15,256 bases of DNA from a virus, in the UHGV virus genome UHGV-0159580. One strand, written 5' to 3'. Shown piece after piece: positions 1 to 11,664 of this stretch. The position numbers and the translations under genes were made by a program. Each line of letters starts with the position of its first letter. The first letter of the stretch is position 1. The notes under the pieces are model-generated. The model was not told where the DNA came from. It searched no databases and was given only the letters and a program-made list of their open reading frames with translations.

Positions 1-435
1 TAAGTACTCTTTGTAGTTGTACAGTCGCTTTGTTAATGTGCACTCTTTGTCAAAATCAAACCGCAAGTCAGTTGTCAACGTAAATTTGCGCACACTTGAC
101 AAACACCATGCCTTGAATGCATTCCACAGAACATCTTGCTGAAATTCTGAGCAATGCTCAAGAGCAGCCTTTGAGCCCTGCCAGAATATTGCGCAATCAT
201 CTGATTTTGCGCACTTCAGCATATCTTGCCATGCATGTATGCTGTTGATAATATGCACCTTATCATGCACAAGCTCATCAAGTGTTGCATGTTTGTTCTC
301 AGGGTCGCCAAACACGTATACAGCATCAAACATTGTCTGCACAAAACCTGCAAATGCGATGGGTTCTGTATGTTTAAGATGCTGTATGTCTGAACGTACG
401 CATGTGTCAAATTTCAAAATGAAGAGTTTGCTCAT
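1..435 (-). CDS. Hypothetical protein, partial (C-terminal part lies beyond the window's left edge); not in the ORF track
   Basis: Manual translation of the minus strand shows one frame open from ATG at 435..433 to position 1 with no stop (about 145 codons, MSKLFILKFDTCVRSDIQHLKHTEPIAFAGFVQTMFDAVYVFGDPENKH...KRLYNYKEYL). Composition is protein-like. It overlaps the dCMP deaminase 3' end by 29 nt; an internal ATG at 333..331 would give a non-overlapping start. It competes with the Cys-rich 64-aa ORF 216..410. Confidence 0.45.
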   Translation of the reverse strand, partial: MSKLFILKFDTCVRSDIQHLKHTEPIAFAGFVQTMFDAVYVFGDPENKHATLDELVHDKVHIINSIHAWQDMLKCAKSDDCAIFWQGSKAALEHCSEFQQDVLWNAFKAWCLSSVRKFTLTTDLRFDFDKECTLTKRLYNYKEYL

Positions 436-1132
436 ATGCTTTGCAATTATCTATTACATGTTGATATTGTACTTCATCTATGATGTGATTTGCAATGACA
501 CCATATGAAGTGTCATACATTGGCATCTTCTCATATGACAACGCTGCGTCAAGATTGCATATCACATAATTGCAATGCGCAATGTCATCTACATTGTCAC
601 TAACTGCTACGATATTGACGCAATTTGCAAGAAATGCATCATCAAAGTCTACTTGATTGCATGCAACTTCATAATCTGCAGCGCTTCTTGGGTACCAATA
701 TAACTCAATGCCAGCGCTACTAAGTAGTCGCAAGCCATCTATGTGATGATACAAGTCAACAAAATGCACTTGCTTAACACCTGCTTGCAAAATGAGCTTT
801 GCACAATCAATGCATGGACTGTATGTTACATACAACACGGCGTCGTTTGCAGTTGCATTGCCATATTTGCATAGCTTCATCAATGCATTTGATTCTGCAT
901 GCAAAACTTCTTTGTTGGTTTTGATACCTGCTGATGTTGCATGCTCACAACAATTTGACATACCAGTTGGCATGCCATTATAGCCATCTGAAATTATGCA
1001 GCCATCTTTTACAAGCAATGCGCCAACTTTTGCTCGCTGAGCATGTGAATTTAATGACCAGAGCTCAGCCATTTTAAGATATATGAGATTTCGTTGAAAC
1101 CACTTCGTTTCAGACCAAGTTAGCCATTTCAT
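407..1132 (-). CDS. Deoxycytidylate (dCMP) deaminase, cytidine/dCMP deaminase zinc-binding family, with a C-terminal extension of about 90 aa of unknown function
   Basis: Complete ORF with ATG start. Carries the zinc-ligand motifs of the CMP/dCMP deaminase fold: HAESNAL (H-A-E) and SPCIDCAK (PCxxC), preceded by VGALLVKDGCIISDGYNGMPTG, typical of dCMP deaminases. Confidence 0.8.
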   Translation of the reverse strand: MKWLTWSETKWFQRNLIYLKMAELWSLNSHAQRAKVGALLVKDGCIISDGYNGMPTGMSNCCEHATSAGIKTNKEVLHAESNALMKLCKYGNATANDAVLYVTYSPCIDCAKLILQAGVKQVHFVDLYHHIDGLRLLSSAGIELYWYPRSAADYEVACNQVDFDDAFLANCVNIVAVSDNVDDIAHCNYVICNLDAALSYEKMPMYDTSYGVIANHIIDEVQYQHVIDNCKAYEQTLHFEI

Positions 1133-1136
1133 ATGC

Positions 1137-2525
1137 TTACAGCGAATTTATGATTTTGCTGAAGTCTGCTACAATGTTTGAATGTAGCTCAATGAGATAG
1201 TCGTCTTGCAATGTCATAAGCTCATCAAGTTCATCTACACTTAATGACTTGAAGACTTCTGCACAATGCTTAGCGTTTTTGATGCTTGCAACTTTGTGAT
1301 GCTTAATGAAATCAGGGCACACACAGTCATTCACATACATACAAGGCAAGCCTGCAAGCATTGATTCAATTGCTCTGAATGTAATTGCGTTGCATTGTTT
1401 CATATTCTCTTCACATACGACGTATGCAAAGTCGAACTGTGACAAGTATGTTAGCATATCAAAATACTTAACTGTGCCATCATAGACATGCGGCATATCA
1501 ATGTCGATATTGCCGACAACATGAGTTTCGATGTCTGCGCAGCCAAGCAAATCAATGATGTCTTGTTTACGTTCAGCACACATATCATTCCAAGCCACCA
1601 TCGGCATTGCAGTAGTTAACTTGCCTGATTGCAATTTTGCTAAATGTTTTTCGTTATGCGATGCATACAATGGAATGCCTTCAAGTCTTGCATGCTGAAT
1701 TGCATTGACGTTGATTTCTGTCAACATTGACAACGCATTATGCATGTTCTGCGCTTGTGTGACAATTGTCATCTTTTTGCAGTGCAATCTAAAGTTTGCA
1801 ATGTGTGGCACGAGTCGTAAATCATACCACAACCATACAATGTCACCCTTCCATGATTCAATGAGCTGCTTGTGCTGTTTGTAGATGACTGACTGACTCA
1901 TCGAGTCATTCATTGCTGAGCATACAATGTACAACACACCGTATTTGTCAATTGAGTGTTGCACATAGTCAACTGAGCAGCATAGCACATCTTTGTCGAA
2001 AAGTTTTGGGTCATGCACTTCTGCATCATCTACAATAAGATGTGCCTTGTATTGATGCTGCTTTGTTGCATCAATGATGCGAGCAATTGCAAAACATTCT
2101 CTACTTTGAATGTCTGTCTTATCTTGTCGTGGTTGGTCTTGTGTTCGTACAGGATACGCAGGCTTAAGTATTACGGGCACAAAATGCGTTTTTGCAGAAT
2201 ATGGCACATCTGCAGCAGCAAACTCCGCGTTGCATCGTCGTGAATGTAGATGTCGTGCATATGATTGCAACAATGCATGAATCATTGCAATGTACTCTTC
2301 CAATTCAAACACCTCGTGTTCAGTTGCGTTTGTTATGTCGACTACGACATTTTGTCGCACAATTGGATATACACAAATAGCATAGTCATTGTATGTCAGT
2401 GGAATGCCTATAAATGCTGTGCATTTGCTTCTAAGCCATACAATGCAATCAGCATCAAACACAATCTCATATTGCTGCTGCAAAGCATTTAATTGCGCTA
2501 TAATCAAATCATTGTGCATGTTCAT
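1137..2525 (-). CDS. Glycosyltransferase-like protein (GT-B fold, GT4-like C-terminal donor-binding motif); substrate unknown
   Basis: 462-aa ORF with ATG start, 4-nt gap to the downstream dCMP deaminase. The C-terminal region CEENMKQCNAITFRAIESMLAGLPCMYVND closely resembles the GT4/GT-B signature E-x7-E, roughly EGFGLxxLEAMAxGxPVI. The N-terminal half is unassigned. Confidence 0.5.
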   Translation of the reverse strand: MNMHNDLIIAQLNALQQQYEIVFDADCIVWLRSKCTAFIGIPLTYNDYAICVYPIVRQNVVVDITNATEHEVFELEEYIAMIHALLQSYARHLHSRRCNAEFAAADVPYSAKTHFVPVILKPAYPVRTQDQPRQDKTDIQSRECFAIARIIDATKQHQYKAHLIVDDAEVHDPKLFDKDVLCCSVDYVQHSIDKYGVLYIVCSAMNDSMSQSVIYKQHKQLIESWKGDIVWLWYDLRLVPHIANFRLHCKKMTIVTQAQNMHNALSMLTEINVNAIQHARLEGIPLYASHNEKHLAKLQSGKLTTAMPMVAWNDMCAERKQDIIDLLGCADIETHVVGNIDIDMPHVYDGTVKYFDMLTYLSQFDFAYVVCEENMKQCNAITFRAIESMLAGLPCMYVNDCVCPDFIKHHKVASIKNAKHCAEVFKSLSVDELDELMTLQDDYLIELHSNIVADFSKIINSL

Positions 2526-2563
2526 ATTGTTTTATCATATATGAATATATTGTACAACACAAA

Positions 2564-2577
2564 GTGCATACTTGCAC
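2564..2577. promoter_or_regulatory. Inverted repeat GTGCA-N4-TGCAC in a non-coding gap (candidate operator or promoter-associated site)
   Basis: gtgcaTACTtgcac at 2564..2577. The same half-site arrangement recurs at the centre of the 32-bp palindrome at 14622..14653. Confidence 0.25.
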
Positions 2578-2626
2578 GTTGTGTTGCTAAAAATGTCACC
2601 ATTGTACAACATGTATTGAGCTTTTG

Positions 2627-2663
2627 CACACAAAACAAGCAGACTGCAATTGCAGCCTGCTTG
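2627..2663 (-). terminator. Rho-independent terminator candidate for the minus-strand transcript downstream of CDS 2713..3258
   Basis: On the minus strand, CAAGCAGGCTGC-AATT-GCAGTCTGCTTG forms a 12-bp stem (one G-U pair) with a 4-nt loop, immediately followed by UUUUGUGUG. It lies in the 187-bp gap 2526..2712. Confidence 0.5.
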
Positions 2664-2712
2664 CACTTGTTTACTAACCCTTAAAATCAATGACACTATG
2701 TCAATGTCATTT

Positions 2713-3258
2713 TTACTTTGCGTCTGCTTCTTGCAATTCAGCTTCAGCAGTCTTTTCAGCGAGCTCAGCTTGCTTGCGCTTGTCAATTTCCTGCAAACAT
2801 GCGTCAAGTGCAGTGGCGTTTTCACGATACTGCTCATCGAACTTCTGCACTTCTGCTGCAGGAGCCTCAAGCAGATTGTTGAGCGAATCCAGTGCTGCAG
2901 CAACCTGAGCGCCCTTGAACTTTGTCGTTGATACTGCACGAACAATGTACTTGAACTCGAAGATGCCCATAGTGCTTCGTCCTTTTGCAGCGTCAGTAGC
3001 CCATGCAGCAAATGCGACAACGTCACGCATAAGTCGCATATCAAACTCAAGCTGCGGCAAAACAAGTTCGCACACATTACGTGCAACAGACTTAAGCAGC
3101 TCGCCATCAGTTGTGACAATCATCTGCATTGACTGCGATTTGTCTTCGAGTTCTTTTCGAGCTTCGCTGAGCGACTTTTCAAGTGCTTTCAGCTGCTCCA
3201 TTGTCATGTCTTTGAGTTCAGTTGCAGGCTTTGCTGCAACAGCATTTTTCTTTGCCAT
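2713..3258 (-). CDS. Hypothetical protein, Ala/Glu/Lys-rich with predicted coiled-coil termini
   Basis: 181-aa ORF with ATG start (MAKKNAVAAKP...) and protein-like composition. Preferred over the overlapping 2535..3119 ORF, which is Ser/Leu-rich low complexity. Confidence 0.7.
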   Translation of the reverse strand: MAKKNAVAAKPATELKDMTMEQLKALEKSLSEARKELEDKSQSMQMIVTTDGELLKSVARNVCELVLPQLEFDMRLMRDVVAFAAWATDAAKGRSTMGIFEFKYIVRAVSTTKFKGAQVAAALDSLNNLLEAPAAEVQKFDEQYRENATALDACLQEIDKRKQAELAEKTAEAELQEADAK

Positions 3259-3271
3259 ACGAATAAATGTG

Positions 3272-3823
3272 TTATGAGATGATTTTGATGATTGTTAATG
3301 CTAACGCCGTTAAGCACATTGCACTTAACAGAATCTTCCATATTACAGCAGAACGTCTTAGCAATCGCAAGGGCTGTTCTTCTGCATATGCAAGATATTC
3401 GAGTTCAGCAACATTTGACATCACTGTTCTAATGATGCCATTGCCGGTGTAGTTATGTCGAAGTGTTACGACATCAAGCAGATTGTTTTGCACAAGTTGA
3501 TTGAAGACAGGTTCCATGCGTTCATGCATGATGTGCTCAACAATTGCGACTGAGTCAAGCGCTTCAAATTCTGTGCCTTGTATTGTTGCAATGACTTCGG
3601 CAGGGAGCTGCGTATGCACAATGAAGCATCGTTGTTCATTGAACAATGCAAATCCACTGTTCTTCAAAAATGTCAAAAAGTACTCATGTTCAGGGTCATT
3701 CAGATAGTCAAGCAGATATTGATGCCACTTGTTAGCTTCTGCATCAAGCTTGTTTAGACGTCGAATGACACCAAATGGCCATAAAGCCAATTTGGCATTG
3801 TGGAGGATGGTTTTGTAGTTCAT
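3272..3823 (-). CDS. Hypothetical protein with a hydrophobic C-terminal segment (possible membrane anchor)
   Basis: The ORF-track start at 3832 is a TTG; the first in-frame ATG is at 3823..3821 (MNYKTILHNAK...). The C-terminus ...AVIWKILLSAMCLTALALTIIKIIS is hydrophobic. Confidence 0.65.
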   Translation of the reverse strand: MNYKTILHNAKLALWPFGVIRRLNKLDAEANKWHQYLLDYLNDPEHEYFLTFLKNSGFALFNEQRCFIVHTQLPAEVIATIQGTEFEALDSVAIVEHIMHERMEPVFNQLVQNNLLDVVTLRHNYTGNGIIRTVMSNVAELEYLAYAEEQPLRLLRRSAVIWKILLSAMCLTALALTIIKIIS

Positions 3824-3828
3824 ATGTG

Positions 3829-4827
3829 TCAATGTTCAAGATGACATGCGCCATTCTGACAGCCTGTATTGCCATCTGACACGCTTGCAAGATTTGCATT
3901 GCTGCCACTACCAGCAGCTTTGCCAGCATTGCCAGATGAGCCAACAATGCTTATGAGTCTACTGTCAGACATTGCAGAGCCTGCATTAGCTGAACCTGAT
4001 TTGCTTGGCAATGATATTCTGGCTTCATCATAGTTGCCGCCGAAAGTGATGTTCAAGTCAAGTGTAGAATCATCACTGTCAATATCAATGTTGTGCTCGT
4101 AGTCTGTGATGATGTCATCGCCAGCCCATATGTTATCACCAGAATTGATTGCAGGATATTGCAAGTGCAGTGTCAATGGCAGCTTAATGACTGCATCAAT
4201 ATCTTCTTTGCCATGCACAATTGCATGCTGAGCATCCATAGAAGACACATCAAATTCATATGATGCGCCATGCATGGTGCCTGCCCAGACAAAGCCATAC
4301 ATGTTCAACTGATACAGCTTGCTAAGTAAATACTCGTAAGTCTCAAGCGCAGTTAACCAATCTGTTGAAAACACTTGCACATTGATAGCAAAATCTACTG
4401 GTATTCGTCTCATTGTGCTATACAATGCGACAGGCACACTGTCAATTGTGGCAATCAAACGAATCTGTGTATCTTGCATGCCAAGTGCTTGTTTGTTGAT
4501 TCGAGGCGACTCTACTTCAACAACACATCGCGGCACAGTTTGAACAAAGTTCTTTGCGTCAACAAATGCATTTTCAAGTGAATTTGTTGGTGTATTGCCA
4601 ACTGGACTTGAGCCTTTGCCAACAAGTTCACCCGACCAATATCGTTGGTCACCAGTGCTCAGCATGTATGTCGGCATATTCAGACGAGCATATAAATCAG
4701 ACAACAGGCCAATAAATGCATTACGAAAGAAGTGCTGAAATGTCACGTCTTTTGCATTGACTTGCTGTTTGATTGCAGCTTGAGCTGATTTCAGCTCAGC
4801 TGAGCTCCTGTTCAGTGAATCTTTCAT
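3829..4827 (-). CDS. Hypothetical protein with a Gly/Ser/Asn/Ala-rich C-terminal tail
   Basis: 332-aa ORF with ATG start and an ATGA overlap with the upstream gene. The low-complexity tail is SGSANAGSAMSDS...SSGNAGKAAGSGSNANLASVSDGNTG. Confidence 0.75.
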   Translation of the reverse strand: MKDSLNRSSAELKSAQAAIKQQVNAKDVTFQHFFRNAFIGLLSDLYARLNMPTYMLSTGDQRYWSGELVGKGSSPVGNTPTNSLENAFVDAKNFVQTVPRCVVEVESPRINKQALGMQDTQIRLIATIDSVPVALYSTMRRIPVDFAINVQVFSTDWLTALETYEYLLSKLYQLNMYGFVWAGTMHGASYEFDVSSMDAQHAIVHGKEDIDAVIKLPLTLHLQYPAINSGDNIWAGDDIITDYEHNIDIDSDDSTLDLNITFGGNYDEARISLPSKSGSANAGSAMSDSRLISIVGSSGNAGKAAGSGSNANLASVSDGNTGCQNGACHLEH

Positions 4828-5258
4828 TGGTCAAGCATATCATTAGCAGCTTTTTGCTGCATAACGAGTTTTAGCAAAGCGTCATTGCCCTGTGATTCAA
4901 GCATGTCTTTAGCTATGATGAGCTTGTTTGTGTATGACAACTGGTCCCAACAAAGCTTTGTGTCAAGCTCATAATACGTGTTGATTGCATCAAACACATC
5001 GATAAGCTGCAAAGCGCTTTTTGTTAACGCAGCGCATTTTGCGATGCACTCATTGTACTTTGTTGGCTCAATGAACTTGTATTTGCGAAGTCTTATTCTA
5101 ATGTACCTGTGATACGAAGACTTTTGCAAAAACTGTTCTATTGTAGATGTTGCTGATGCTACTACAGTGTCATCATTGATTGAAAGCTTGTCGTATTTGA
5201 TTTCAAACCGCTCAAGTTCAGTAGATAGCCATTCATTGTCAAATATCGACTTGCCCAT
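4824..5258 (-). CDS. Hypothetical protein
   Basis: 144-aa ORF with ATG start; its stop overlaps the next start (ATGA at 4824-4827). Confidence 0.7.
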   Translation of the reverse strand: MGKSIFDNEWLSTELERFEIKYDKLSINDDTVVASATSTIEQFLQKSSYHRYIRIRLRKYKFIEPTKYNECIAKCAALTKSALQLIDVFDAINTYYELDTKLCWDQLSYTNKLIIAKDMLESQGNDALLKLVMQQKAANDMLDQ

Positions 5259-6117: not shown

Positions 6118-7713
6118 TCAAAGCTTGAATTTTTGCACTTTTGCATCTACTGGCATCTTTTCAGCGTCATAGATTCGTTTTCGAGCAGCAAAGTGTTGCA
6201 TGTCATAATTGCAGTAGCAATAGCCTTTGCGAAGCTTGACAAGCATATCACTGTGAATTGTAAGCTTATGTGCAATATCAATAATGATTGCTTTCTGCTT
6301 AAGTGGATGCTTACGCAACAGTCGACCAATTGACTGTAATGTTACGTTGTCAGATTTGCCAATCATTAAGAACGCAGCGTAAAACCAAGCATGCACAGAT
6401 ACACCTGTAGACAAAGTACCAGTAGTTGCAATCATGATATGTCTGTCAGGCTCTGCTTCCATCATTGCAAGCATATCTTTGCGTTCATGCAAGGGTACAT
6501 CACCTCTAATGATGTGAACAACCTTGTCAACACCAGACTGCTGTATGAATGTTTGGCAAGCATCATAGATGTTCTGCACATGGTCTCGTCGTTTGCAAAG
6601 TACAAGAGCATTTTTGTCAAGCGAACAAATGATTTTTGCAATGAGCTTGTTAGCATCGACGTAGTTCATGCAATGATGTTGTTCTGCTGGAAGCAGTCTT
6701 GCAGTGTTATCAAACACTTCAGGATGCTCTTCAAGATACTGCACAAATGGCGCATCGTATTCTGCTGAATGCTCAATGACTACTCGTTTGATTTCAAAGT
6801 CAGACACGATGTTCTTTTCGAGTGCTTGAGCTACACCAAATGTACCCAATATTGGCCCAATGTACGATTCAATTGTCAAACGAGCTGCAGTATGTTCAAG
6901 CGGCAATGAACCAGACACACCAAGACGATAATGAGCCTTTGTGCAATGACTGAAGATTTCACGAATTGATGCTGCAGGTGCACCATGAGCTTCATCAGTC
7001 ACAATAAAGTCAAACTGTTCGAAAAAATCTGCTGGCATATTGACAAGACTTTGATATGTGCCGACAACCATATCTGCATCTTGCATTTTGTACTCATTGC
7101 GAACGCCTGAATGGATTTTGTAGAGCTTGTAGTTCTTGTTTGCTAAATCTGACTCATTTTGTTGATAGCTGACAACAATATCGTCAAATGCTTGTGATAC
7201 AAGATGCACCGAGGGTACAATCATAAGCGTTTTGCCATTGATTCTCTTGCTATCTTTTAAGAAGCGACTAATTACATAAACAAGAGCTGTTTTGCCATAA
7301 GACGTCGCAAGGCGCAAACAGCATTTCTTGAATTTGCAAGCAGTCAAAATGAATTTGAGCTGGTCGTCACGCATGTCAAATGGCATGTCAAGACATTCTG
7401 CCCATTGCTCAAGTTCTTCAAGCGATACAATGCGGTCAAAATTGTCAATGAGACCCTCAATCTTGACTTCATATGGAATTGGCTTACGCAATTGTAGGTC
7501 CCAAATACGCTTCCATAAGCCAAATGGCAAGTACACGCCATTAAACACATAGCAAATTTGCCCATTCCAATCTGCTTTGCGACCTTTACGCTTATTGACT
7601 GCTGCTGCAACAAAGTTTGGCACTTCTGCAGTAGCTTCAGCATACAATTGCTTGACTTCCAAATCATTTGCTTCGACAATCTGAAGCAAATCACCTATGA
7701 CTTTGAGTCTCAT
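6118..7713 (-). CDS. Superfamily 2 DNA/RNA helicase (DEAD/DEAH-box type; UvsW-like role possible)
   Basis: Helicase motifs are present in canonical order: Walker A LATSYGKTAL, motif II VTDEAH, motif III GVSGSL, motif V IATTGTLSTGVSV and motif VI QSIGRLLR. An N-terminal domain of about 130 aa is unassigned. Confidence 0.85.
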   Translation of the reverse strand: MRLKVIGDLLQIVEANDLEVKQLYAEATAEVPNFVAAAVNKRKGRKADWNGQICYVFNGVYLPFGLWKRIWDLQLRKPIPYEVKIEGLIDNFDRIVSLEELEQWAECLDMPFDMRDDQLKFILTACKFKKCCLRLATSYGKTALVYVISRFLKDSKRINGKTLMIVPSVHLVSQAFDDIVVSYQQNESDLANKNYKLYKIHSGVRNEYKMQDADMVVGTYQSLVNMPADFFEQFDFIVTDEAHGAPAASIREIFSHCTKAHYRLGVSGSLPLEHTAARLTIESYIGPILGTFGVAQALEKNIVSDFEIKRVVIEHSAEYDAPFVQYLEEHPEVFDNTARLLPAEQHHCMNYVDANKLIAKIICSLDKNALVLCKRRDHVQNIYDACQTFIQQSGVDKVVHIIRGDVPLHERKDMLAMMEAEPDRHIMIATTGTLSTGVSVHAWFYAAFLMIGKSDNVTLQSIGRLLRKHPLKQKAIIIDIAHKLTIHSDMLVKLRKGYCYCNYDMQHFAARKRIYDAEKMPVDAKVQKFKL

Positions 7714-7720
7714 GACATGA

Positions 7721-7768
7721 CTTGTTAAATGAAAAGAGGCTCAGACAAACAATGTCTGTCTGAGCCTC
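7721..7768 (-). terminator. Hairpin plus U-tract (terminator or attenuator candidate) between the SSB-like gene and the helicase gene
   Basis: Perfect 12-bp stem gaggctcagaca (7736..7747) with tgtctgagcctc (7757..7768) and a 9-nt loop. On the minus strand it is followed by UUUUCAUUU (plus 7727..7735). Confidence 0.45.
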
Positions 7769-7790
7769 GAGCATCTTTGATGCACTTGTG

Positions 7791-8921
7791 CTACTTGAGC
7801 CCGTTGATGAATGCTTCAGTTTCAGCATCCATCGTTGCTGCTGCAGGTGCTGCTGCCGGAGCTGCTGCAGGTGCAGGCTCTGCTGCAGGCGCTGAAGCTG
7901 CTGCAAACGGGTCAATAGCTGTCTGAGCTGCTGGTGCAGTAGCAGGCGCAGCTGCCGGAGCTGCTGCAGGTGCAGGCTGAGTAGTCTGTGCCTGCTGAGT
8001 TGCTGACGGATTGATGACAATGTCAGGCCAGATGTCCGACACATCCTTGTAGTTAGCAAGGCGCATCTTAACCTGACGCTTGATGTCATCAGAAGCTTCG
8101 TGGTAGCCCCACTCCTTTTCGACATTCGGGTACTCCTTGAGCATGTCGACAATCTGCTGCATGATTTGCTGCTTGTATGCAGGGTCAGTGTCATACTTCG
8201 CCTGGTCAACAAGCGTGCCATCTGCAAGCAGCATCGACGATACGTTGGGCGAAATCGTCGAAGTCTCGTAGTCACGCATTTCAACACCATTGACGTCTTT
8301 CAGCGTAATCTTCAAGAGAATGTCGTGGCCCTTAACGGGATGGAACATGTCCATAGGCTGAGCGCCCATCTGGATGTCTTCGTCGGTCGGCTTCATTGCA
8401 GACATGCAACGCTTGTAGATGGCTGCGGGTAACCTGTATGGTAACACGCGACCAACGTTCTCAGTGTGCACTGAATCAGCCTTGATTTGCACGAGGCAAG
8501 TGTACTGACTCTGCATGCTGAACTCTCGCTTTGCAAGTGCTTCCTGCTGAGCATCCTTGGTATTGATGAGATCCCAGTAAAAATTTGATACTGGGCACCA
8601 ACCATAGGGTTTCATCAAATTTTCAGGATTTTCAGGATGCGGATTCGGCGAGCTCGGCGAATTGTAGCGGAAGCCCTGATTAGCGCCAGTCCCAAACCAG
8701 TAATAGCGGATGATTGAAATCGGCACAGCAGGGTCGTTCAAGTTCGGCAGAATTCGAATGACTGCTCGATAGATTCGGTCCTTACTTTCGGAAGGCTTAG
8801 GATTGAAGAACTCGGGTCCTGCAGAACGTTCCGGCTTAGCAAAGCTTGCTACATTGTCCGGCTGGACATCAAAGATTGACAGCGGCCGATTGCCATTCTG
8901 TCCATTTTCAATTTGTGACAT
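7791..8921 (-). CDS. Putative ssDNA-binding protein, T4 gp32-like, with a Pro/Ala-rich linker and a short C-terminal tail
   Basis: 376-aa ORF with ATG start. RAVIRILPNLNDPAVP resembles the gp32 segment I recall as QAVIRFLPSKNDEQAPF, and VGRVLPYRLPAAIYKRCMSAM resembles gp32 [20 protein letters not shown]. Both comparisons are from memory, not a search. A PAPAAAPAAAPA low-complexity linker precedes the tail ...TMDAETEAFINGLK. Confidence 0.55.
   Translation of the reverse strand: MSQIENGQNGNRPLSIFDVQPDNVASFAKPERSAGPEFFNPKPSESKDRIYRAVIRILPNLNDPAVPISIIRYYWFGTGANQGFRYNSPSSPNPHPENPENLMKPYGWCPVSNFYWDLINTKDAQQEALAKREFSMQSQYTCLVQIKADSVHTENVGRVLPYRLPAAIYKRCMSAMKPTDEDIQMGAQPMDMFHPVKGHDILLKITLKDVNGVEMRDYETSTISPNVSSMLLADGTLVDQAKYDTDPAYKQQIMQQIVDMLKEYPNVEKEWGYHEASDDIKRQVKMRLANYKDVSDIWPDIVINPSATQQAQTTQPAPAAAPAAAPATAPAAQTAIDPFAAASAPAAEPAPAAAPAAAPAAATMDAETEAFINGLK
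7800..7990. repeat. GC-rich simple-sequence region (GCTGCNGGN-type) encoding the Pro/Ala-rich linker, with a duplicated block of about 30 bp
   Basis: gctgccggagctgctgcaggtgcaggct occurs at about 7850 and again at about 7942. The surrounding sequence is a near-periodic gctgc(a/c)gg repeat. Confidence 0.7.
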
Positions 8922-9037: not shown

Positions 9038-10291
9038 TTATCTTGCATGGCCACAGTCATAAACTGCAACATAACCTGCATCAATCATCTCTTGCTCATT
9101 TTGTCCGCAGTCTTCAATATGCTCTTTTGTTTTGAGATGACACCAGTGTTTGCGAATTGTCGACCTGTCATCTGACAGATGTGGCTTAAGTGCGAAGTCA
9201 GTTGAATCTACAGGTTCACCTGCAAGATGCTTTCTAATGACGTCAATGACTTCATTGTCATCCATCCATTCGAATATTGTAATGCAAGTGTAGCCATGCT
9301 TGAGAGCAAGCTGAGTTTTGTCGAAGTGATATTGCGTGCCAGTCGGCCAATTGTCTTTTGATTTGCCAACAATATAAATGTATGACAATGTTGAATTATG
9401 CGTAATTGTTGGATTGACTTCAATCAATAACTTACAACAATCATTGACATAGCTAAGGTCATATGAACGATTTTCAATGTTAACTGCATCAAAATCACAC
9501 GCAATTCCAAGTTCTTGCAATAATTTGTCATGCCACCATTTATTTGCTTTTGATATGACTTTGCCTTGTGCTGTACGACATTTAGTAGTCATACAATGCC
9601 AAGGCACACCATAACGTTGCATACATGTTTCTGATACTTTACTCATATTGCCGCATCCATTGCCGTATCGCTCACGCTTTATTGCAACGCATTTAGCAAT
9701 GTCACCAAACCCATTACCATATCGCTCACGCTTTGTCGCAATTGATTTAGCAATGTTGCCTGGTCCCGCATTGCCATATCGCTCACGCTTTGTCGCATGA
9801 ATTTTGTCAATAGGCCCAATTGCATTGCCATATTTAGCAATCTTTGCAGCAACAGTCTTTTGCATAGTTTCAGCACTGCATACACCATTATCATAGCGTT
9901 CAAGCTTTGTTGCTACTGCTTTCTGCGGATTACCTGAACGTGCGCCATAGCGTGCAATATTTGTTGCTTCACATTTTTCTTTTGGCCCAAATGTGTTGCC
10001 ATACAGTAGCTTCTTTGTGGCTTGCTGACGTTCAAGAGGTCCTTGTGCATAACCATAGCGCTCAATATTTGTTTGCTTACTTTTATCAATGACTGATTGC
10101 ACAAGTCTACAACTTTCTACACCATATTTGCGTAAGCACCCAATTTTTGTGCCATATCGATTCTTAATTTTGCCGTGTACAGTGACATTTCTGCTCAACC
10201 GAATGTTCTCAGTTGTTCTCAACAACTCATCTCGCTCTTGCTCAAGTTCTGCAATTCGTTTCTCAAGAGCTTCACCAGTTAGTGGTGTCAT
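9038..10291 (-). CDS. Repeat-containing protein: N-terminal coiled coil, about 9-10 tandem repeats of about 21 aa with an (K/E)RYG(N) core, and a C-terminal Vsr/DUF559-like PD-(D/E)xK endonuclease-like domain (homing-endonuclease-like)
   Basis: 417-aa ORF with ATG start and an ATGA overlap with the upstream gene. Repeats include IATKRERYGNAGPGNIAKS, IATKRERYGNGFGDIAKCV and AIKRERYGNGCGNM. The C-terminus LLIEVNPTITHNS...HFDKTQLALKHGYTCITIFEW follows the Vsr/DUF559 pattern (IEvDG..H...D..R...L...GW.vlRf). The domain assignment is by motif only. Confidence 0.45.
   Translation of the reverse strand: MTPLTGEALEKRIAELEQERDELLRTTENIRLSRNVTVHGKIKNRYGTKIGCLRKYGVESCRLVQSVIDKSKQTNIERYGYAQGPLERQQATKKLLYGNTFGPKEKCEATNIARYGARSGNPQKAVATKLERYDNGVCSAETMQKTVAAKIAKYGNAIGPIDKIHATKRERYGNAGPGNIAKSIATKRERYGNGFGDIAKCVAIKRERYGNGCGNMSKVSETCMQRYGVPWHCMTTKCRTAQGKVISKANKWWHDKLLQELGIACDFDAVNIENRSYDLSYVNDCCKLLIEVNPTITHNSTLSYIYIVGKSKDNWPTGTQYHFDKTQLALKHGYTCITIFEWMDDNEVIDVIRKHLAGEPVDSTDFALKPHLSDDRSTIRKHWCHLKTKEHIEDCGQNEQEMIDAGYVAVYDCGHAR
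9657..9835. repeat. Tandem direct repeats of about 57-60 bp, at least three well-conserved copies, inside CDS 9038..10291
   Basis: attgccRtatcgctcacgcttt(a/g)t(t/c)gca... recurs at about 9657, 9713 and 9771, with degenerate copies continuing toward 10180. These encode the (K/E)RYG protein repeats. Confidence 0.8.
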
Positions 10292-11049: not shown

Positions 11050-11664
11050 CTAGCGCAATATAGTCCAAGCTTCAATAATTGCTGAAAAATCTTCAAAGGG
11101 CATTGTAGTGTAGCCGGAATCACCCCAAGATACACCCCAGCTATTCTTAATGATGAATGAGTCTTTTGTGTAGCCGACAATTGACACTGCATGCCCACCA
11201 AAATTGCCATCGCCTTTCCAAAAATGCTCAGCATCAATGTCTTTTACGAGCATGCCAACAAAGACAGGCCCATTTGCTACAACAGCAGATTTGATTTCAT
11301 CAATTGTGTAGCAACGTCTGTATGCAGTTATTGGCAATTGCTCTGAGCCCTTTGACATCTTGATTGGCTGTGCTTTGAGCAGCTTAAAGACATCACGTGG
11401 AATCATGCCCTCTTGAGGTGCATTTGAACGACGCTCATACAATGCTTTGATGTCAAGCTTGCCTTGCATAGACAGCACAGAAGACCACCAGTCAATCATT
11501 GTTGCTGCTGTGTAAGCTGCACACATTGATGTACTGCCTTGGTCTTCTACTTGAAGTTGAGCCAACTTGTACACAAGTGGCAAATCTGTTTTTGCGTCAA
11601 AACGCAAGTCTCTGTCATCTTGAGGCGACTGGATGTAGCCCAGTCCATATGTCGTTTGTTTCAT
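11050..11664 (-). CDS. Papain-family (C1) cysteine peptidase, without propeptide or signal peptide
   Basis: All three catalytic-region signatures of C1A peptidases are present with papain-like spacing: VEDQGSTSMCAAYTA (oxyanion Gln six residues before the catalytic Cys, as papain Q19/C25), GGHAVSIVGY (catalytic His; papain DHAVAAVGY) and IKNSWGVSWGDSGY (catalytic Asn; papain IKNSWGTGWGENGY). Confidence 0.85.
   Translation of the reverse strand: MKQTTYGLGYIQSPQDDRDLRFDAKTDLPLVYKLAQLQVEDQGSTSMCAAYTAATMIDWWSSVLSMQGKLDIKALYERRSNAPQEGMIPRDVFKLLKAQPIKMSKGSEQLPITAYRRCYTIDEIKSAVVANGPVFVGMLVKDIDAEHFWKGDGNFGGHAVSIVGYTKDSFIIKNSWGVSWGDSGYTTMPFEDFSAIIEAWTILR

What the first reader, a model, noticed from the sequence alone, without database searches (positions are those of the whole stretch)
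407..2525. Glycosyltransferase-like gene tightly coupled to dCMP deaminase: candidate DNA-modification pair
A 462-aa protein with a GT-B/GT4-like C-terminal motif is only 4 nt upstream of a dCMP deaminase, inside a replication/nucleotide-metabolism module with a gp32-like SSB, helicase and thioredoxin. In T4-like and other phages, glycosyltransferases in this context glycosylate modified DNA bases. The unassigned N-terminal half of the GT-like protein and the 90-aa C-terminal extension of the deaminase may be adaptations. A DNA-modifying role is hypothesis; the GT could instead act on polysaccharide or protein.
Basis: inference. Interest (0 to 1): 0.65.

Follow-up and report, generated by a model that had tools for sequence, protein, structure and literature searches.

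The report
Phage DNA sugar-transferase gene cluster
The 462-aa protein is a very divergent relative of the phage T4 enzyme that puts glucose on modified cytosine in DNA, and it heads an operon (dCMP deaminase, more sugar transferases, a nucleotide kinase) in an uncultured ~175-kb phage that also encodes a dCMP-hydroxymethylase-type enzyme, so the phage most likely sugar-coats its own DNA.

Summary
In detail: a 462-aa ORF (1137-2525, minus strand) lies 4 nt upstream of a 241-aa dCMP deaminase (407-1132).

Near-identical 175-kb IMG/VR contigs show one operon:
- the BGT-like gene;
- the deaminase;
- a second BGT-like paralog, whose first 145 codons are window 1-435;
- a GT47-like transferase;
- a TMPK-like kinase.

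A second unit follows with a 4-TM membrane protein, a third BGT-like paralog and a second GT47-like gene. About 13 kb downstream lie a thymidylate-synthase homolog with the dCMP-hydroxymethylase signature (L143D, D169, N177D) and a canonical ThyA.

Best reading: T4-like 5hmC synthesis followed by glycosylation on the DNA, with the deaminase feeding dUMP to ThyA. The DNA target is inferred, not shown. This is a new variant of a known kind. The cultured relatives, Chryseobacterium phages MA9V-1 and MA9V-2, make it testable.

The parts
1137..2525 (-). Gene for the 462-aa BGT-like (T4 DNA beta-glucosyltransferase-like) GT-B glycosyltransferase, first gene of the operon
2190..2525 (-). N-terminal extra domain (aa 1-~112; predicted two helices, three strands, then a long helix), placed before the GT-B core
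   Evidence: It is confidently modelled (pLDDT ~80-90). It is present in divergent form in P0001-P0005 and P0009, and absent in P0006-8 and P0010-12. Residues 101-112 form a low-confidence linker. Function unknown.
1137..2189 (-). GT-B core (aa ~113-462). The acceptor domain carries the K121 / D-K-T-D-x-Q-x-x-E143 motif and D235 (WYDLRLVP). The donor domain carries R319, G338, R384 and E387 (FRAIESMLAG).
   Evidence: These columns are invariant in the 13-member alignment. D235 aligns with BGT D100, R319 with R195, and R384/E387 with R269/E272 in the HMMER and hhalign alignments.
407..1132 (-). dCMP deaminase gene (241 aa), starting 4 nt after the GT stop codon
   Evidence: PF00383 5e-21, phrog_174 1e-43. 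PDB 4p9c (S-TIM5 dCMP deaminase) 1e-29 and T4 Cd 1e-21. Its closest cellular relatives are Bacteroidota dCMP deaminases at 52-57% identity.
407..682 (-). C-terminal extension of the deaminase (aa 151-241) ending in ...HFEI
   Evidence: No PDB or Pfam match. Deaminases of 238-291 aa with extensions occur in all syntenic relatives, but the extensions are barely alignable.
1..435 (-). First 145 codons of a second BGT-like paralog (388 aa in full). It overlaps the deaminase 3' end by 29 nt and runs off the window.
   Evidence: ATG at 435-433. It matches L004 12088-13251 at E=7e-98. The full protein hits the A2 HMM at 7.4e-8 and phrog_32512. Its donor-domain motif is PNRWVEGVLA.
2635..2664 (-). Terminator-like hairpin (13-bp stem, 7 GC pairs, T-rich tail) ending the upstream transcription unit
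   Evidence: the sequence is shown.
2549..2609 (-). Two copies of TTGTACAAT (2601-2609 and 2549-2557) in the 187-nt intergenic region upstream of the GT gene; candidate phage promoter elements
   Evidence: The window has 2 matches against 0.29 expected. All five copies in the related contig (L004/L013) are on the coding strand in intergenic gaps upstream of genes.

Best explanation
The 462-aa protein is a highly divergent homolog of phage T4 DNA beta-glucosyltransferase. It is an inverting GT-B enzyme that takes a sugar from a UDP-sugar and, by analogy, transfers it to the hydroxymethyl group of 5-hydroxymethylcytosine flipped out of duplex phage DNA. Asp235 would act as the catalytic base, and Arg319, Arg384 and Glu387 would hold the UDP-sugar. 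It is the first gene of an operon in a ~175-kb uncultured phage, probably with a Bacteroidota host. That operon also encodes a dCMP deaminase, a second BGT-like paralog, a GT47-like transferase and a TMPK-like nucleotide kinase. A second unit follows with a 4-TM membrane protein, a third BGT-like paralog and a second GT47-like transferase.

Inferred pathway: a TS homolog with the hydroxymethylase signature converts dCMP to 5hm-dCMP. The kinase and host NDK raise this to the triphosphate. The polymerase incorporates 5hmC. The BGT-like enzyme attaches the base-proximal sugar on DNA, and the paralogs or GT47-like enzymes may extend it.

The deaminase plays the T4-cd role. It diverts dCMP to dUMP for the phage's canonical ThyA, balancing dTTP against modified dCTP and draining unmodified dC.

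Shown: the fold, the homology to BGT, residue conservation, the operon anatomy, and the presence and signature of the TS homolog in 92.6%-identical genomes. Inferred: DNA as acceptor, 5hmC as the base, the identity of the sugar, and multi-sugar extension.
For: BGT homology:
- The family profile hits only T4 BGT among 177,635 PDB sequences, E=3.5e-10; hhalign gives 95% probability.
- The top five Foldseek hits are all T4 BGT, TM 0.72-0.76.
- The equivalents of BGT D100, R195, R269 and E272 are invariant in the family.
- One family member and the 391-aa paralog hit phrog_7922 'beta-glucosyltransferase'.

Operon anatomy:
- A terminator and promoter-like motifs lie upstream, followed by a 4-nt gap and then a 29-nt overlap between genes.
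- The downstream gene order is known from L001/L004.
- The 190-aa kinase is 36% identical to MA9V2_145 'thymidylate kinase', which abuts the TS homolog MA9V2_146 in a cultured relative.

Base supply:
- The 340-aa TS homolog in the same IMG/VR contig has its best PDB hit to MilA CMP hydroxymethylase, 1.4e-22.
- It carries L143D, D169 and N177D, exactly like T4 gp42. RB69 5hoC synthase has D169N instead, and SP8 dUMP hydroxymethylase has Asn at position 177. The meaning of these positions is taken from PMC13326640.
- A separate canonical ThyA is present, 41% identical to the E. coli enzyme.

Precedent:
- T4 places beta-gt next to gene 42.
- RB69, DLP3 and RL38J1 cluster GTs with a TMPK-like kinase and a TS homolog.
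- An association of dCMP deaminase with ThyS-containing GT pathways is noted in bioRxiv 10.1101/2023.12.21.572611.

Conservation: the GT-deaminase-GT47-kinase order is kept in six further divergent lineages.
Against: - There is no biochemical or nucleoside evidence.
- The protein fails Pfam PF09198 and every other curated model.
- Identity to BGT is only 14-18%.
- The TS homolog, the kinase and the other GTs lie outside the window. They were seen in contigs 92.6% identical to it, not in the window's own genome.
- No dCTPase was found in the ~45 kb examined, so full replacement of C is unproven.
- A conserved 4-TM membrane protein sits next to BGT-like paralogs in several lineages, and a KdsC-like sugar-phosphate phosphatase sits next to the TS homolog. 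Both would also fit an envelope-glycan role.
- The whole region is colinear across the clade, so conserved GT-deaminase adjacency may reflect general synteny rather than functional coupling. More distant family members (L003, MA9V-2) lack the adjacent deaminase.
Confidence: 0.65

Rival explanations
1. The BGT-like and GT47-like transferases glycosylate something other than DNA. Candidates are a host envelope glycan (LPS, capsule or lipid-linked intermediate, for superinfection exclusion or receptor masking) or a phage or host protein. On this reading the location among nucleotide genes is simple synteny.
For: A 4-TM membrane protein is conserved next to a BGT-like gene in the window's clade, L003, MA9V-2, L015 and L017, and a further small TM protein follows the last GT. 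A KdsC-like (Kdo-8-P phosphatase family) domain is encoded beside the TS homolog. GT47/Glyco_trans_1_2-type enzymes normally build polysaccharides. Five transferases is many for a DNA base.
Confidence: 0.2
2. The transferases do act on phage DNA, but on a different base. One option is 5-hydroxymethyluracil, with the tightly coupled deaminase converting 5hm-dCMP to 5hm-dUMP. Another is 5-hydroxycytosine, as in RB69 and DLP3.
For: The deaminase is translationally coupled between two BGT-like genes and carries a clade-specific C-terminal extension of unknown role. The TS homolog's best structural relatives (MilA) are the same ones reported for the 5hoC synthases. Relatives of the TS homolog in phage databases are annotated as both dUMP and dCMP hydroxymethylases.
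Against: The TS homolog keeps Asp at position 169, whereas 5hoC synthases have Asn there. It has Asp at position 177 (cytosine) rather than Asn (uracil). A canonical ThyA is present to use the dUMP made by the deaminase. The deaminase catalytic core is an ordinary dCMP deaminase, 52-57% identical to cellular enzymes.
Confidence: 0.1
3. The BGT-like protein is a decayed or non-catalytic relic, for example a DNA- or sugar-binding protein without transferase activity.
For: It is extremely diverged, there is no curated family hit, and the family is very small: 12 cluster representatives among 1.84 billion proteins.
Against: All BGT catalytic and donor-binding positions examined are invariant across family members that share only 19-29% identity. 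The ORF is intact in every lineage, and the fold is confidently predicted.
Confidence: 0.05

Closest known systems
Phage T4 DNA beta-glucosyltransferase (BGT; CAZy GT63, Pfam PF09198; PDB 1bgt, 1c3j, 1qkj, 1nzd)
   Different: Identity is only 14-18% and there is no PF09198 hit at E<=1. This protein has an extra ~110-aa N-terminal domain and a family-specific K...DKTDxQxxE motif at the start of the acceptor domain. It occurs with two paralogs whose acceptor domains are unalignable. The phage lineage is unrelated to T-even phages (helicase <=30% identical to any known phage). The sugar and anomeric linkage are unknown.
Multi-glycosyltransferase cytosine hypermodification clusters of RB69, DLP3 and RL38J1 (PMC13326640)
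   Same: Both have several GT-B transferases, a TMPK-like nucleotide kinase, a TS homolog with N177D, and a sugar-phosphate phosphatase, all in or near one cluster.
   Different: Those TS homologs carry D169N and make 5-hydroxycytosine, whereas this one keeps D169 like T4 gp42. Their transferases resemble BshA, PimA or SPS rather than BGT. No arabinose-5-P isomerase or NTP-transferase homolog was found here. Here the TS homolog lies ~13 kb from the transferases, and a dCMP deaminase sits inside the transferase operon.
Chryseobacterium phages MA9V-1 and MA9V-2 (OR050627, OR513085), the cultured relatives
   Same: The SSB - helicase - ... - BGT-like (MA9V2_112) - 4-TM protein (113) - BGT-like paralog (115) order is syntenic. 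A TMPK-like kinase (145) abuts an N177D TS homolog (146). A canonical TS (094), an SbcCD-like fusion and a KdsC-like protein (142) are also present.
   Different: The BGT-like member is only ~20% identical, lacks the N-terminal domain and has no adjacent deaminase. All of these genes are annotated as hypothetical, and the MA9V papers do not mention DNA modification.
dCMP deaminases of phages (T4 Cd, 1vq2; cyanophage S-TIM5, 4p9c)
   Same: The zinc-dependent HAE / PCxxC catalytic core is shared (1e-29 to S-TIM5, 1e-21 to T4 Cd). The probable role is the same: feeding dUMP to a phage ThyA in a phage that modifies cytosine.
   Different: It lacks the T4 insertion (the alignment splits at T4 residues 64-88). 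It carries a ~90-aa C-terminal extension with no detectable homolog, which is variable even among syntenic relatives.

Membership tests
T4 DNA beta-glucosyltransferase family (Pfam PF09198 / CAZy GT63) | Scores above the Pfam gathering threshold for PF09198 | tested here: not met
   PF09198 does not appear for the window protein at E<=0.1 or E<=1, or among the top families of the 13 family members. PF09198 is the beta-GT model according to PMC13216743.
T4 DNA beta-glucosyltransferase family (Pfam PF09198 / CAZy GT63) | GT-B two-Rossmann-domain fold, closest to BGT among solved structures | tested here: met
T4 DNA beta-glucosyltransferase family (Pfam PF09198 / CAZy GT63) | Catalytic base Asp100 (the D100A mutant structure is 1nzd; Lariviere et al. 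2003) | tested here: met
   D235 in WYDLRLVP aligns with D100 in FTDIRLP and is invariant in 13 sequences. The role of D100 rests on the PDB title and the reference title.
T4 DNA beta-glucosyltransferase family (Pfam PF09198 / CAZy GT63) | UDP-glucose-binding Arg195, Arg269 and Glu272. The roles of these residues are recalled from Morera et al. and were not re-read here. | tested here: met
   R319, R384 and E387 align with them and are invariant. BGT R191 lies in an insertion that is absent here.
T4 DNA beta-glucosyltransferase family (Pfam PF09198 / CAZy GT63) | Transfers glucose in beta linkage to 5hmC in duplex DNA | not testable with these tools
   This needs an enzyme assay or nucleoside LC-MS/NMR.
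Phage pre-replicative pyrimidine hypermodification pathway (TS homolog + kinase + DNA GT; T4, RB69 type) | TS homolog with cytosine specificity (N177D) and a non-methyl product (L143D/E) | tested here: met
   L006:2463-3485(-) has D at both positions and keeps D169 like T4 gp42. The criteria come from PMC13326640. The gene is in the 92.6%-identical IMG/VR contig, not in the window itself.
Phage pre-replicative pyrimidine hypermodification pathway (TS homolog + kinase + DNA GT; T4, RB69 type) | Dedicated nucleotide kinase in the cluster | tested here: inconclusive
   The 190-aa P-loop protein has only weak TMPK/dNK/AAA_28 hits. It is clearly orthologous to MA9V2_145, annotated 'thymidylate kinase' (3e-28), and to the Pfam dNK-hitting genes in L015-L017.
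Phage pre-replicative pyrimidine hypermodification pathway (TS homolog + kinase + DNA GT; T4, RB69 type) | dCTPase to exclude unmodified dCTP | not tested
   None was recognised among the ORFs scanned in ~45 kb. About 130 kb of the genome was not examined.
   E=0.2, 11.6 bits against a cutoff of 26.4, aa 385-432 only.
Deoxycytidylate deaminase (PF00383, zinc-dependent CDA fold) | Pfam threshold met, H-A-E and P-C-x-x-C zinc motifs present, and closest to characterised dCMP deaminases | tested here: met
   74.9 bits against a cutoff of 25. The motifs LHAESNAL and SPCIDCAK are present. PDB 4p9c 1e-29 and 1vq2 1e-21.

The most novel reading that the evidence does not exclude
This uncultured phage clade, probably infecting Bacteroidota, may build a new oligosaccharide hypermodification on 5hmC using up to five transferases (three BGT-like, two GT47-like). 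The glycan might include an unusual sugar supplied through the KdsC-like phosphatase pathway, with a conserved 4-TM membrane protein as a partner. The lineage-specific N-terminal domain of the first transferase and the C-terminal extension of the deaminase could tether base synthesis and DNA glycosylation into one complex.
Probability: 0.2. Interest if true: 0.75.

Novelty: new variant of a known kind. Interest (0 to 1): 0.55.

Why it matters
Glycosylated 5hmC is the classic phage counter-defence against restriction enzymes and CRISPR. BGT itself is a standard epigenomics reagent. Until now the BGT fold family has been recognised essentially only in T-even-like phages.

This locus shows a deeply divergent BGT branch that is invisible to Pfam, PHROGs and NCBIfam and is annotated 'hypothetical' in cultured phages. 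It sits in an unrelated ~150-220-kb phage lineage and has expanded to three paralogs alongside two other transferases. That predicts a previously undescribed, probably multi-sugar, DNA hypermodification, and possibly new 5hmC-directed transferases with different sugar or linkage specificity.

The prediction is directly testable on Chryseobacterium phages MA9V-1 and MA9V-2. It would also explain host-defence evasion in that lineage.

Tried and rejected
- Direct Pfam, PHROG and NCBIfam scans of the 462-aa protein gave nothing.
- Megablast of the window and tblastn of the protein against 50,697 phage genomes gave no match.
- A PDB search with the 3-sequence profile found nothing, and the first AF2 model from that alignment was unusable (pLDDT 44.5). 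Both succeeded only after the exhaustive HMMER search added ten distant homologs.
- Genome walking with an exact DNA pattern near a chunk edge returned the same chunk and cost one scan. Walking with a protein query worked.
- I tested whether GT N-terminal domain presence tracks the adjacent extended deaminase. The match is not strict: P0008 lacks the domain but has the deaminase one small ORF away.
- The intervening 77-aa ORF is not a split-off N-terminal domain.
- The deaminase C-terminal extension has no PDB relative and aligns poorly even among syntenic relatives. I therefore reject calling it a defined domain.
- RB69 arabinose-pathway proteins (phosphatase, NTP-transferase/kinase, isomerase) have no detectable homologs in the ~60 kb of loci held.
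- phmmer with T4 BGT as a single sequence finds none of the paralogs.
- The 518-aa GT47-like protein is not related to the BGT-like family (hhalign 2.7%).
- No tRNA genes were found in the related loci.
Full report
**1. Observation**

All long ORFs in the window are on the minus strand. ORF 1137-2525 encodes 462 aa and ORF 407-1132 encodes 241 aa. The junction reads TAA-GCAT-ATG, which is a 4-nt spacer.

A third ORF starts at 435 (minus strand), overlaps the deaminase 3' end by 29 nt and runs off the window.

Upstream of the 462-aa gene lies a 187-nt intergenic region. It holds a strong terminator-like hairpin (2664-2635; 13-bp stem) and two copies of TTGTACAAT. The 462-aa gene therefore opens a new, tightly packed transcription unit.

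**2. The deaminase**

It passes PF00383 (74.9 bits against a cutoff of 25) and hits phrog_174 at 1e-43. It has the HAE and PCxxC motifs. Its closest solved relative is the cyanophage S-TIM5 dCMP deaminase (1e-29), followed by T4 Cd.

The catalytic core is 52-57% identical to cellular dCMP deaminases of Bacteroidales, Marinilabiliales and Muribaculaceae. This hints at a Bacteroidota host.

Residues 151-241 have no match in Pfam or the PDB. All syntenic relatives have extended deaminases (238-291 aa), but the extensions are barely alignable. The extension is a clade feature under weak sequence constraint, not a recognisable domain.

**3. The 462-aa protein**

Pfam, PHROGs, NCBIfam and tblastn against 50,697 phage genomes give nothing. 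The family is tiny. There are two homologs in the 5.8-billion-sequence word-indexed search and twelve cluster representatives among 1.84 billion proteins by exhaustive HMMER.

In the 13-member alignment the conserved core is aa ~114-462. The first ~110 aa are variable or absent.

A profile of that alignment hits exactly one PDB sequence, T4 DNA beta-glucosyltransferase, at E=3.5e-10. hhalign gives 95% probability.

An AlphaFold2 model built on the 13-sequence alignment reaches pLDDT 85.8. A model built on 3 sequences had failed. The fold searches give:
- Foldseek: T4 BGT entries at ranks 1-5.

In the alignments:
- BGT D100 (FTDIRLP) corresponds to D235 (WYDLRLVP).
- BGT R195 corresponds to R319.
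- BGT R269 and E272 (LRVWET) correspond to R384 and E387 (FRAIES).

All of these are invariant in the family. D100 is the catalytic base of BGT. This rests on the title of PDB 1nzd and on Lariviere et al. 2003, as cited. The UDP-binding roles of the Arg and Glu residues are recalled from the Morera papers and were not re-read here.

As a Glycos_transf_1 match it is sub-threshold (E=0.2).

Conclusion: this is a GT-B enzyme of the BGT lineage, far outside PF09198, with an added N-terminal alpha/beta domain (aa 1-~112) of unknown role.

**4. Context beyond the window**

The window is 92.6% identical in nucleotide sequence to an ENA contig (L001) and to two IMG/VR contigs of 174.6 and 175.6 kb (L004, L005).

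The gene order downstream of the BGT-like gene is:
- deaminase;
- 388-aa protein;
- 518-aa protein;
- 190-aa protein;
- 71-aa protein;
- then, after a TTGTACAAT motif, a 244-aa, a 391-aa, a 412-aa and a 115-aa protein.

The assignments are:
- The 388-aa and 391-aa proteins are paralogs of the BGT-like family. Their A2-HMM E-values are 7e-8 and 6e-10, and they hit phrog_32512 and phrog_7922 'beta-glucosyltransferase'. Only their donor domains align, through a PNR..E motif.
- The 518-aa and 412-aa proteins are mutual paralogs with weak GT47 and Glyco_trans_1_2 hits.
- The 190-aa protein is a P-loop kinase. It is orthologous (3e-28) to 'thymidylate kinase' MA9V2_145 of Chryseobacterium phage MA9V-2, which directly abuts a TS homolog there.
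- The 244-aa protein has about four transmembrane helices. It is conserved next to BGT-like genes in several lineages.

Further downstream in the same contig (L006, L013) lie:
- an SbcCD-like fusion protein;
- a 364-aa protein with a KdsC-like HAD phosphatase domain;
- a 340-aa TS homolog;
- an XPD-like helicase;
- a canonical ThyA.

**5. The TS homolog**

Its best PDB hit is MilA CMP hydroxymethylase (1.4e-22).

I aligned it with E. coli ThyA, T4 gp42, RB69 gp48, the SP8 dUMP hydroxymethylase and MA9V2_146. It has Cys146, Asp at L143, Asp at D169 and Asp at N177. This is the same pattern as T4 dCMP hydroxymethylase. RB69 5hoC synthase has Asn at 169, SP8 has Asn at 177, and the canonical ThyA of this phage has L143, D169 and N177.

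According to PMC13326640:
- N177D marks cytosine specificity;
- L143D/E marks a hydroxymethyl rather than a methyl product;
- D169N marks 5-hydroxycytosine synthases.

The enzyme is therefore predicted to be a dCMP hydroxymethylase. The phage thus encodes the T4 set: gp42-like, cd-like, td-like, a nucleotide kinase and BGT-like transferase(s). In T4 itself, beta-gt and gene 42 are adjacent.

**6. Conservation**

The order [BGT-like] - [extended deaminase] - [BGT-like paralog and/or GT47-like] - [kinase] recurs in L002, L015, L016, L017, L019 and L020. In these lineages the BGT-like protein is only 23-43% identical.

The more distant members P0012 (L003) and MA9V2_112 lack the adjacent deaminase but keep the membrane protein and the extra transferases.

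The whole SSB-helicase-thioredoxin-...-GT region is colinear in all of these lineages. The adjacency therefore cannot by itself prove functional coupling.

**7. Interpretation**

The most likely mechanism (confidence ~0.65) is pre-replicative synthesis of 5hm-dCTP, followed by glycosylation on DNA by the BGT-like enzyme, with possible extension by the paralogs and GT47-like enzymes. The deaminase supplies dUMP to ThyA and lowers the dC pool, as T4 cd does.

The rivals are:
- a non-DNA acceptor, suggested by the membrane partner and the KdsC-like phosphatase (0.2);
- a different modified base, 5hmU or 5hoC (0.1);
- a non-catalytic relic (0.05).

The published descriptions of MA9V-1 and MA9V-2 do not mention glycosyltransferases or DNA modification. 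An earlier metavirome survey already noted that dCMP deaminase annotations associate with ThyS-containing GT pathways.

**8. Novelty and score**

The kind of system is known: phage 5hmC synthesis plus DNA glycosyltransferase. What is new:
- a BGT branch undetectable by curated models;
- its N-terminal domain;
- its threefold paralogy combined with two GT47-like enzymes;
- a conserved membrane partner;
- its occurrence in a phage lineage only distantly related to anything cultured (helicase at most 30% identical to any known phage).

I rate it a new variant of a known kind, with interest 0.55. It is a solid, testable lead rather than a surprise.

Noticed in passing
window 2549-2557 and 2601-2609 (minus strand); L004 9913, 9966, 15694, 19441; L013 2994: The near-palindromic motif TTGTACAAT occurs only in intergenic gaps, always on the coding strand, just upstream of gene blocks: the GT operon, the membrane-protein/GT block, and the SbcCD-like gene. 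It is a candidate phage-specific promoter element. The window has 2 copies against 0.29 expected.
   Followed up: partly
L004 15961-16695 (outside the window; homologs L012 12631-13365, L003 7794-8375, L015 18060-18797, L017 13539-14324): A ~200-260-aa protein with about four transmembrane helices and an acidic tail is conserved immediately next to BGT-like genes across divergent phage lineages. Its role is unknown. It is the main argument for a non-DNA (envelope) target.
   Followed up: partly
L013 7353-8447 (outside the window): A 364-aa protein overlaps the start of the TS homolog. It has an N-terminal KdsC-like HAD phosphatase domain (DxDG motif; TIGR01670 1e-9, below cutoff) plus ~210 unassigned residues. 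MA9V-2 has a counterpart annotated the same way (MA9V2_142). This may point to synthesis of an unusual sugar donor.
   Followed up: partly
window 7791-8921 (minus strand), especially 7836-7977: The gp32-like SSB ends in an Ala/Pro-rich low-complexity tail (APAAAPAAAPATAPAA...). It is encoded by imperfect 12/18/30-nt repeats. This explains the local GC rise to 0.50 and the spurious overlapping 199-aa ORF at 7691-8290.
   Followed up: yes
window 9623-10208, with a 54-bp tandem repeat at 9657-9797: This segment, inside the 417-aa ORF (9038-10291), is the only part of the window that does not align with the 92.6%-identical IMG/VR and ENA contigs. Those contigs have a different ORF arrangement (84, 47 and 250 aa). 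The segment contains 2.5 copies of a 54-bp repeat and shows strong strand skew. It looks like a hypervariable gene.
   Followed up: no
window 11050-11664 (minus strand): A 204-aa papain-like cysteine peptidase (PF00112 8e-11, C39-like weak) is conserved at the same position in L001 and L002, upstream of the SSB. This is unusual inside a replication module.
   Followed up: no
window 2713-5258 (minus strand): Four conserved ORFs of unknown function (144, 332, 186 and 181 aa) lie between the thioredoxin and the GT operon. They are syntenic in L002, L015, L017 and L019 and have no family hit, apart from a weak PhiKZ gp85-like match for the 144-aa protein.
   Followed up: no
L017 12973-13542 (outside the window): In one related lineage a DHFR gene sits inside the GT/kinase cluster. 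This reinforces the link between these transferases and folate-dependent pyrimidine metabolism.
   Followed up: no
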